A stretch of 64,000 bases of DNA from Ostreococcus lucimarinus (lineage: Eukaryota). Below the pieces are notes generated by a model that saw nothing but the letters and a program-made list of their open reading frames with translations, was not told the DNA's origin and did not search any database. This document shows positions 7,355 through 7,570 of the stretch, piece by piece. The number at the start of each line of letters is the position of its first letter. Position 1 is the stretch's first letter. The stretch lies in NCBI GenBank assembly GCA_000092065.1, contig CP000581.1; one strand, 5' to 3'. A program made the translations under genes and the position numbers.

Positions 7355-7570
7355 ATCGCGCGATCGATCGCGCGCATCGAGCTCGACCCTCGCGCGGGCG
7401 ATCGGTCTCGACGCTCGAAACGCGCGCGATCGATCGCGCGACGCGCGCGATGACGATCGATCGACGCGCCGATCGATCGCGCGATCGATCGCGCGTTTCG
7501 AGCTCGAACCTCGCGCGGGCGATCGGTCTCGACGCTCGAAACGCGCGCGATCGATCGCGCGACGCGCGAT
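7355..7570. repeat. Tandem ~120-bp direct repeat (2 copies) containing repeated 18-bp perfect palindrome CGCGCGATCGATCGCGCG, in Grx/GNAT bidirectional promoter
   Basis: gagctcga(c/a)cctcgcgcgggcgatcggtctcgacgctcgaaacgcgcgcgatcgatcgcgcgacgcgcg occurs at c.7379-7448 and c.7500-7568; palindrome cgcgcgatcgatcgcgcg at c.7358, 7425, 7478, 7546. Confidence 0.8.

What the first reader, a model, noticed from the sequence alone, without database searches (positions are those of the whole stretch)
7355..7570. Palindrome-dense tandem repeat in the glutaredoxin/GNAT bidirectional promoter
A ~120-bp unit is repeated twice head-to-tail. Four copies of the perfect 18-bp palindrome CGCGCGATCGATCGCGCG are embedded across the region, along with the shorter palindromes TCGAGCTCGA and TTTCGAGCTCGAA. 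These lie between ATGs at 7306 (minus) and 7663 (plus). Palindromic GATCGATC cores flanked by CGCGCG resemble dimeric transcription-factor sites or methylation targets, and the duplication suggests recent expansion. Both flanking genes encode organelle-targeted proteins, so a shared cis-module is plausible.
Basis: seen in the sequence. Interest (0 to 1): 0.5.

Follow-up and report, generated by a model that had tools for sequence, protein, structure and literature searches.

The report
Polymorphic palindrome-rich promoter minisatellite in Ostreococcus
A 121-bp stretch between two back-to-back genes of the tiny marine alga Ostreococcus lucimarinus has recently been duplicated; wild populations carry one or two copies, and its striking palindromes mostly follow from the CG/GATC-rich composition, so it looks like an ordinary unstable repeat and not a special control element.

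Summary
A 121-bp unit is repeated head-to-tail (7353-7594, 92-93% identical) and holds four perfect copies of CGCGCGATCGATCGCGCG. It lies in the 356-bp gap between a glutaredoxin gene (minus) and a GNAT acetyltransferase gene (plus).

The window is Ostreococcus lucimarinus CCE9901 chromosome 1. Fourteen assemblies of the same species from marine metagenomes were informative. Three carry one unit, seven (counting the window) carry two, and four carry two minus a 12-bp slippage step. Patchy exchange of variants between the copies is also seen. The duplication is therefore recent and still segregating.

Sister Ostreococcus lineages keep the gene order but lack the unit and the 18-mer. They carry unrelated tandem repeats in the same gap. 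Dinucleotide shuffles of a single unit give a perfect palindrome of 18 nt or more in 27% of trials, so palindromy is largely compositional. The four copies come from nested duplication.

CGATCG is not enriched in other promoters of the window. Near-copies and exact copies elsewhere sit next to cytosolic genes (proteasome Rpt1, HSP70), and one near-copy is not conserved in a sister lineage.

Verdict: an ordinary, recently expanded promoter minisatellite (VNTR). A transcription-factor or methylation role is neither supported nor fully excluded.

The parts
7353..7473 (.). Repeat unit 1 (121 bp)
   Evidence: TRF period 121 x 2.0. Direct repeat D3 at 93%. Absent from the single-copy alleles L005, L010 and L143.
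7474..7594 (.). Repeat unit 2 (121 bp). This is the copy retained in single-copy alleles.
   Evidence: L010 joins the left flank directly to sequence in the unit-2 state.
7357..7374 (.). Perfect 18-bp palindrome P1, CGCGCGATCGATCGCGCG
7423..7440 (.). Perfect 18-bp palindrome P2
7478..7495 (.). Perfect 18-bp palindrome P3. It overlaps a 22-bp palindrome at 7470-7491.
7544..7561 (.). Perfect 18-bp palindrome P4
7475..7561 (.). An ~87-nt near-perfect inverted repeat (hairpin/cruciform-capable module) made of P3 + TTTCGAGC... / ...GCTCGAAACG + P4. The equivalent module in unit 1 is ~7354-7440.
   Evidence: The RNA fold pairs 7475-7514 with 7519-7560. The whole array folded as DNA gives z = -4.2, but shuffles already reach -112 kcal/mol.
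7470..7481 (.). 12-bp slippage indel site (CGATCGATCGCG), deleted in alleles L004, L006, L008 and L144
   Evidence: Alignment A1 columns 175-186
7497..7508 (.). 12-bp palindrome TTCGAGCTCGAA. Copy 1 has the shorter TCGAGCTCGA at 7377-7386.
7640..7668 (+). Sequence around the GNAT start codon, 93% identical to the tail of unit 1 (7427-7455) and 83% to the tail of unit 2 (7548-7576). It may be a third, degenerate repeat remnant.
   Evidence: the repeat finder family D7; alignment A2. The sequence is low-complexity, so the homology is only suggestive.
6750..7306 (-). Monothiol (CGFS) glutaredoxin gene: exon 1 at 6981-7306, a 98-nt intron at 6883-6980, exon 2 at 6750-6882
   Evidence: Pfam PF00462. 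Exon 2 encodes [23 protein letters not shown]....
7663..8703 (+). GNAT acetyltransferase gene (346 aa)
   Evidence: Pfam PF00583 and PF13508. The exact protein is encoded on contigs in 133 blocks of the collection.

Best explanation
This is a young, still-segregating minisatellite (VNTR) in the CpG-rich shared 5' region of a divergent gene pair in Ostreococcus lucimarinus. The region is built from two self-complementary microsatellite motifs, (CG)n and (GATC)n. Any symmetric string of CG and AT dinucleotides reads as a palindrome. A ~66/55-bp internal duplication gave two identical 18-mers per unit. Replication slippage or unequal exchange between the CGATCGCGCGATCGATCGCGCG-type direct repeats at the unit borders then duplicated the whole 121 bp. 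Hairpin formation by the ~87-nt inverted-repeat module probably promoted that step. Ongoing 12-bp slippage and short-tract gene conversion between the copies keep remodelling the array. The array most likely lies between the two transcription start sites and behaves as tolerated spacer DNA. Shown: the structure, the copy-number and indel polymorphism, lineage specificity, the non-coding status and the compositional origin of the palindromy. Inferred: the slippage and cruciform mechanism, the position relative to the start sites, and neutrality.
For: Organism: the window encodes exactly ABO93913.1 and XP_001415616.1 of O. lucimarinus CCE9901. Polymorphism: one copy in L005, L010 and L143; two copies in the window and L001, L002, L003, L007 and L009; two copies minus 12 bp in L004, L006, L008 and L144. 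All four combinations of CA/TT (7375-7376) and C/A (7387) occur in copy 1, while copy 2 is fixed for TT/A. The ACG/GGT variant at 7562-7564 mirrors the copy-1 state. Both patterns indicate gene conversion. One-bp indels between 7352/7353 and at 7650 show the gap is non-coding. Lineage specificity: seven sister-lineage loci keep the Paf1-Grx-GNAT-SNAPC1-JmjC synteny but lack the unit. They carry unrelated tandem repeats: 57 bp x 1.9 in L141, 22 bp x 3 and 10 bp x 7 in L142, and a variable (GATC)n in L011 and L140. Composition: 27% of dinucleotide shuffles of one unit contain a perfect palindrome of 18 nt or more, and 4.7% contain two. Palindromes of 12 nt or more number 137 in the window against 48 in shuffles. 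5' intergenic regions have GC 0.61-0.84 and CGCGCG at 23/kb, against 7.6/kb in coding sequence. No other intergenic region has more than 2 CGATCG, against 18 here.
Against: A GATCGATC core flanked by CG runs sits 160-190 nt upstream of the GNAT ATG in three other lineages (L011, L140, L013), which is more than expected for unconstrained DNA. Two 1-mismatch copies of the 18-mer lie at other gene 5' ends in the window, against 0.098 expected, and 0 of 400 local shuffles reach 2. No SNP falls inside any of the four palindromes among 9 aligned alleles, though only about 1.8 would be expected, so this is not significant. No expression or chromatin data were available, so neutrality is inferred.
Confidence: 0.7

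Rival explanations
1. The palindromes are binding sites for a homodimeric transcription factor, and the duplicated unit is a functional cis-regulatory module shared by the two divergent genes.
For: The sites are perfect palindromes with regular 66/55/66 spacing. A GATCGATC core occurs at a similar distance upstream of GNAT in L011, L140 and L013. Near-copies at 3159 and 20128 are both at gene 5' ends, 2 observed against 0.098 expected. The exact 18-mer lies in intergenic or upstream positions on several Mamiellales-like contigs.
Against: Copy number varies from 1 to 2 among haplotypes, and one palindrome is disrupted by the 12-bp deletion in four alleles. The 18-mer is absent from all sister lineages, and the core is absent from L015, L017, L141 and L142. 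In L011 and L140 the core behaves as a length-variable (GATC)n microsatellite. The 20128 copy is not conserved in L151 or L153. CGATCG is not enriched in other promoters. Palindromes are expected from the composition. Other carriers flank cytosolic-type genes (HSP70, Rpt1), so there is no link to organelle targeting.
Confidence: 0.13
2. The array is a chromatin or methylation element. Its dense CpG and ApT (GATC) sites would serve as preferred substrates for linker 5mC (DNMT5) and post-TSS 6mA (AMT1), helping to position nucleosomes at the divergent promoter.
For: Ostreococcus and Micromonas have inter-nucleosomal 5mC in gene bodies and 6mA at ApT in the first linkers after the TSS of active genes (PMC12695648). 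In this GC-rich gap nearly all ApT sites lie in the GATCGATC cores.
Against: The 121-bp period does not match a nucleosome repeat. According to that paper, 6mA lies downstream of start sites and the apparent promoter signal in head-to-head gene pairs is an artefact. The single-copy allele lacks half of the sites. There are no methylation data for this locus. Nothing distinguishes this region from any other CpG-rich 5' region except local amplification.
Confidence: 0.07
3. The ~87-nt hairpin modules are transcribed in a 5' UTR or as a hairpin RNA, and regulate translation or yield small RNAs.
For: The predicted RNA hairpins are very stable: -118.5 kcal/mol for 189 nt, z = -3.6. There are sub-threshold Rfam hits to miRNA-precursor models. 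ATGs at 7450 and 7568 would act as upstream start codons.
Against: All Rfam hits are far below gathering scores (for example 37 against 83 bits) and occur on both strands, which is a generic hairpin shape. Shuffled sequences fold almost as well. A hairpin this strong in a 5' UTR would block ribosome scanning, yet both genes are conserved and intact. The 121-bp and 1-bp indels change the frame and number of the upstream ATGs freely.
Confidence: 0.05
4. The unit is a miniature inverted-repeat transposable element (MITE) that inserted twice.
For: Each module has ~40-nt inverted arms and folds as a hairpin, as many MITEs do.
Against: BLAST finds no other copy in the 64-kb window, and there is none in any related locus. 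There is no target-site duplication at the borders. The copies are strictly head-to-tail with shared microhomology, as expected for slippage. The arms consist of microsatellite motifs.
Confidence: 0.02

Closest known systems
Promoter minisatellites / VNTRs (unstable tandem repeats in yeast promoters, human promoter VNTRs such as INS; from general knowledge)
   Same: Head-to-tail repeats of tens to about a hundred bp in a promoter region. Copy number differs between individuals of one species, with slippage-type small indels and gene conversion between copies.
   Different: Only 1-2 copies were seen. No effect on expression has been shown. The unit is itself a long inverted repeat made of self-complementary microsatellite motifs.
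Cruciform-prone long inverted repeats and palindromes that stimulate slippage and rearrangement (for example palindromic AT-rich repeats; from general knowledge)
   Same: Near-perfect inverted repeats without a spacer, predicted to fold stably, at a site of recurrent indels and assembly breaks.
   Different: These are CG-rich, not AT-rich, and much shorter. Instability here is a copy-number change of a tandem unit, not a translocation or deletion.
CpG-island-like, (CG)n-rich 5' regions
   Same: 5' intergenic regions of this genome are strongly CpG- and GC-enriched relative to 3' intergenic regions, and the array sits in one of them.
   Different: The GATC/CGATCG component is specific to this one locus. 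It is not a general property of the other 26 promoter-type gaps in the window.
Palindromic ATCGAT/TCGCGA-type core-promoter motifs (Drosophila DRE TATCGATA, vertebrate TCTCGCGAGA; recalled from memory, not tested)
   Same: Short CG-containing palindromes near start sites of housekeeping genes and bidirectional promoters.
   Different: No sequence identity beyond ATCGAT. There is no enrichment in other promoters here (ATCGAT 0.12/kb non-coding against 0.52/kb coding), and the factor is not known in Mamiellales.

Membership tests
Minisatellite / VNTR | Head-to-tail copies of a unit of 10 bp or more | tested here: met
   121 bp x 2.0, 92% matches
Minisatellite / VNTR | Copy-number polymorphism within the species | tested here: met
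   1-copy alleles L005, L010 and L143 against 2-copy alleles, all flanked by the identical GNAT protein
Minisatellite / VNTR | Non-coding location, or in-frame if coding | tested here: met
   121-bp and 1-bp indels segregate in the gap, and gene calls start at 7306 and 7663
Conserved cis-regulatory module (phylogenetic footprint) | Motif retained at the orthologous position in related species | tested here: not met
   The 18-mer and the unit are absent from L011, L013, L015, L017, L140, L141 and L142. Only a GATCGATC core is present in 3 of 7, and it varies in length like a microsatellite.
Conserved cis-regulatory module (phylogenetic footprint) | Motif recurs at other promoters beyond chance | tested here: inconclusive
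   2 one-mismatch copies against 0.098 expected in 11.3 kb of 5' windows. However, CGATCG is not enriched, one copy is not conserved, and only 64 kb of the genome was available.
Conserved cis-regulatory module (phylogenetic footprint) | A protein binds the motif | not testable with these tools
   Needs DAP-seq, EMSA or ATAC footprinting
MITE | Terminal inverted repeats | tested here: inconclusive
   The module is a hairpin-like inverted repeat, but the arms are microsatellite sequence
MITE | Target-site duplication | tested here: not met
   No duplicated flank at the junction between single-copy and two-copy alleles
MITE | Dispersed multiple copies | tested here: not met
   No second full-length match in the window or in the fetched loci.
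Rfam hairpin RNA / miRNA precursor | Score at or above the family gathering threshold | tested here: not met
   Best hit 38 bits against a threshold of 124, and 37 against 83. Hits occur on both strands.
DNA-methylation target cluster (5mC CpG / 6mA ApT) | Methylation observed at the sites | not testable with these tools
   Only literature context is available (PMC12695648)

The most novel reading that the evidence does not exclude
The (CG)3-GATCGATC-(CG)3 palindrome is a genuine 5'-end element of Mamiellales genomes, either a dimeric factor site or a nucleation point for ApT 6mA / CpG 5mC at divergent promoters. In that case it has been locally amplified here, so that the 1-copy and 2-copy alleles are natural expression variants of a plastid or mitochondrial redox and acetylation gene pair.
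Probability: 0.1. Interest if true: 0.5.

Novelty: new member of a known kind. Interest (0 to 1): 0.15.

Why it matters
Scientifically this matters little. It is one more unstable tandem repeat in a promoter.

It has three practical uses:
- It is a clean, easily typed 1-copy / 2-copy / -12-bp marker that separates O. lucimarinus haplotypes in marine metagenomes.
- It explains why short-read assemblies break or leave scaffold gaps at this locus.
- It is a worked example showing that perfect palindromes in CG/GATC-rich algal promoters are largely a by-product of composition and should not be read as protein-binding sites without a composition-aware null model.

Tried and rejected
1. Genome-wide count of the 18-mer. 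Only about 8 Mamiellales-like contigs were among the hits, so no genome-wide frequency could be derived.
2. MITE reading. Rejected: no other copies and no target-site duplication.
3. Coding N-terminal extension of GNAT from the in-frame ATG at 7450. Rejected because frameshifting 1-bp and 121-bp indels segregate.
4. Structured or micro-RNA. Only sub-threshold Rfam hits, on both strands.
5. Assembly artefact. Rejected: the two-copy structure is present in six or more independent assemblies and the one-copy form in three. The 100-N gaps in L002 and L005 are unmerged scaffold overlaps.
6. Organelle-promoter specificity. Other carriers of the motif flank Rpt1, a Cu/Zn-SOD-like gene and cytosolic HSP70.
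7. E2F-like reading of TTTCGAGC. It is one mismatch from TTTCGCGC. This was judged by eye only and not pursued.
8. An automatic codon-usage gene finder missed three lower-GC genes, which had to be added by hand.
9. Literature searches found no description of this repeat or of a GATCGATC promoter motif in Ostreococcus.

Full report
**Observation**

Tandem Repeats Finder reports a 121-bp period in 2.0 copies at 7353-7590, with 92% matches and score 401. This is the second strongest tandem repeat in the 64-kb window. The repeat finder gives a gap-free 107-nt direct repeat at 93%.

The perfect 18-mer CGCGCGATCGATCGCGCG occurs at 7357, 7423, 7478 and 7544. At up to 1 mismatch there are 6 hits in the window against 0.04 expected from dinucleotide shuffles. 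TCGAGCTCGA lies at 7377 and 7498.

The flanking start codons at 7306 (minus strand, glutaredoxin) and 7663 (plus strand, GNAT acetyltransferase) agree with Pfam matches and with gene calls on independent contigs.

**Organism and context**

The window encodes exactly the FtsH protein ABO93913.1 and the Paf1 protein XP_001415616.1 of Ostreococcus lucimarinus CCE9901. Both lie on a 1,152,508-bp record, which I take to be chromosome 1.

Genes are packed at about 87% coding. The local order is La(-), Paf1(+), Grx(-), GNAT(+), SNAPC1(-), JmjC(+).

**Anatomy**

Each unit contains two identical 18-mers 66 bp apart. Together with TTTCGAGC... on the left and ...GCTCGAAACG on the right, they form an ~87-nt near-perfect inverted repeat. 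In unit 2 the fold pairs 7475-7514 with 7519-7560.

The ~33-bp linkers between these modules contain degenerate versions of the same motif:
- CGATCGATCG at 7454.
- A 22-bp palindrome at 7470-7491.
- A 16-bp palindrome at 7575-7590.

TRF also detects 12-bp and 23-bp sub-periods.

The 18-mer is simply CG CG CG AT CG AT CG CG CG, a symmetric string of self-complementary dinucleotides.

The tail of each unit, CGATCGA(T/C)CGCGCGACGCGCGCGATG, recurs at 93% identity immediately around the GNAT start codon at 7640-7668. The array may therefore include a third, decayed copy, although the low complexity of the sequence makes this only suggestive.

The N-terminal coding regions of both genes are also built from short tandem repeats. 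The whole stretch from about 7185 to 7900 is a slippage-prone CG-rich zone.

**Is the palindromy more than chance?**

Against whole-window shuffles, yes. Against the local composition, largely no.

Dinucleotide-preserving shuffles of one 121-bp unit contain at least one perfect palindrome of 18 nt or more in 27% of trials. They contain two in 4.7% of trials.

Across the window, perfect palindromes of 12 nt or more are about 3-fold enriched, 137 against 48. Nearly all are CG/TCGA/ACGT/GATC strings near gene 5' ends.

Single-strand folding is only modestly better than shuffles: z = -4.2 with a shuffle mean of -112 kcal/mol.

**Population variation**

The exact GNAT protein is found on many marine-metagenome contigs, and the gap could be compared on fourteen assemblies.

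| Allele | Assemblies |
|---|---|
| Two units | window, L001, L002, L003, L007, L009 |
| Two units minus CGATCGATCGCG at 7470-7481 (removes one perfect palindrome) | L004, L006, L008, L144 |
| One unit | L005, L010, L143 |

The three single-unit alleles come from three independent samples. L143 sits on a visibly more divergent haplotype.

In copy 1, the variants CA/TT (7375-7376) and C/A (7387) occur in all four combinations, whereas copy 2 is fixed for TT/A. The ACG/GGT variant at 7562-7564 likewise matches the copy-1 state in two alleles. These patterns indicate short-tract gene conversion between the copies.

One-bp indels between 7352/7353 and at 7650, together with the 121-bp indel, show that the gap is not coding, even though an in-frame ATG lies at 7450.

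Several short-read contigs begin about 246 nt inside the GNAT coding sequence, and two scaffolds carry 100-N gaps at the repeat. The locus is therefore an assembly breakpoint.

**Comparison across lineages**

Seven loci from sister Ostreococcus lineages were examined, with GNAT identity of 62-83%. All keep the same gene order. None has the 121-bp unit or the 18-mer.

Three of them have a GATCGATC core flanked by CG runs 160-190 nt upstream of the GNAT start codon:
- L011 has CGATCGATCGCGCG.
- L140 has an expanded GATCGATCGGCGAGATCGATCGATCGATCG.
- L013 has GTGATCGATCGTTCGCG.

L011 and L140 differ from each other in (GATC)n length, which is microsatellite behaviour.

The other lineages carry unrelated tandem repeats in the same gap:
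- L141 has a 57-bp unit x 1.9 containing GAGTCATGACTC palindromes.
- L142 has 22 bp x 3 and 10 bp x 7.4.

Repeat turnover in this gap is therefore generic and lineage-specific.

**Is the motif a general promoter element?**

In the window, promoter-type gaps (divergent or tandem) are GC-rich at 0.61-0.84. They carry CGCGCG at 23/kb against 7.6/kb in coding sequence. 3'-3' gaps are AT-rich, with GC of 0.32-0.53.

CGATCG, GATC and GATCGATC are not enriched in non-coding DNA once the array is excluded. No other gap has more than 2 CGATCG, against 18 here.

Two 1-mismatch copies of the 18-mer exist:
- At 3159, 40 nt inside the 5' coding sequence of a Cu/Zn-SOD-like gene.
- At 20128, directly upstream of the ATG at 20148, in a gap shared with proteasome Rpt1.

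That is 2 observed against 0.098 expected in 11.3 kb of 5' windows, and 0 of 400 local shuffles reach 2. This is a hint of recurrence, but dinucleotide shuffles do not model (CG)n runs. The 20128 copy is also absent from the orthologous gap of a sister lineage.

About eight Mamiellales-like contigs carry the exact 18-mer, mostly in intergenic or upstream positions. One lies between a PhoE-like phosphatase gene and cytosolic HSP70 on an Ostreococcus-like contig. Nothing links the motif to organelle-targeted genes.

**Other readings**

Rfam gives only sub-threshold matches to generic miRNA-hairpin models, on both strands.

No second copy of the unit exists in the window or in any fetched locus, and there is no target-site duplication. 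This argues against a MITE.

The literature shows that Ostreococcus has inter-nucleosomal CpG 5mC in gene bodies and ApT 6mA just downstream of start sites (PMC12695648). The CpG and ApT sites here could be methylated, but this is true of any 5' region and cannot be tested with these tools.

**Conclusion**

The finding is a real, statistically non-random structure. Its best explanation is mutational.

A CpG-island-like divergent promoter rich in self-complementary (CG)n and (GATC)n motifs underwent nested duplications. The latest, of 121 bp, is still polymorphic in natural O. lucimarinus populations and is being remodelled by slippage and gene conversion. The palindromes follow from composition and duplication.

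A specific regulatory role is not excluded. I estimate about 0.1-0.15 for a factor-binding or methylation element. It lacks support from conservation, from enrichment and from the identity of other genes that carry the motif.

Noticed in passing
window 6750-7306 (minus strand): The glutaredoxin gene has a 98-nt intron (6883-6980, GTGCGT...CGTAG). A second exon at 6750-6882 encodes the conserved [23 protein letters not shown]... part. All the prokaryote-style gene calls on the metagenome contigs stop in the intron and report a 130-aa product with a spurious C-terminus.
   Followed up: partly
window 7185-7312 and 7651-7726: The N-terminal presequence-like regions of both flanking genes are themselves built from short tandem repeats. 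The glutaredoxin has 9-, 12-, 15- and 27-bp periods encoding MPTTTMPTTT / RATMRATRAT. The GNAT has a 15-bp period encoding a repeated MASRA. Slippage therefore shapes the targeting-peptide-like sequences as well.
   Followed up: no
whole window, intergenic regions: There is a sharp compositional asymmetry. Gaps that contain a 5' end have GC of 0.61-0.84 and three times the CGCGCG density of coding sequence. Convergent 3'-3' gaps are short (17-302 bp) and mostly AT-rich (GC 0.32-0.53, apart from one 17-bp gap at 0.65).
   Followed up: partly
L141 1264-1374; L013 ~2180-2260: In other Ostreococcus lineages the same Grx/GNAT gap carries a different palindrome-rich structure. L141 has a 57-bp unit x 1.9 with perfect GAGTCATGACTC palindromes, whose core resembles an AP-1/GCN4 bZIP site (TGAGTCA). 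L013 has a ~28-nt inverted repeat containing TGACTCA and GAGTCAC.
   Followed up: partly
window 50795-51362: The strongest tandem repeat of the window has a 45-bp period x 10.6 nested in a 135-bp period, plus a 36-bp period x 3.6 at 98%. It lies inside a long minus-strand ORF (49498-52692) and each unit carries the palindrome CGACGCCGGCGTCG. It is probably a repetitive, proline-rich coding region.
   Followed up: no
L145-L150, L002, L005: Short-read metagenome contigs repeatedly end about 246 nt inside the GNAT coding sequence, and two scaffolds carry 100-N gaps with unmerged overlaps at the repeat. The CG-rich 5' zone is a systematic assembly breakpoint.
   Followed up: partly
window 12001-14000, 28001-30000, 42001-44000: Three real genes in lower-GC stretches (GC ~0.56-0.57) scored below a codon-usage model trained on neighbouring genes. 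They are a mannosyltransferase at 13023-14180, an Endonuclease_NS gene at 28335-29591, and a 1605-aa ORF at 40640-45457. This indicates heterogeneous codon usage within the chromosome.
   Followed up: no
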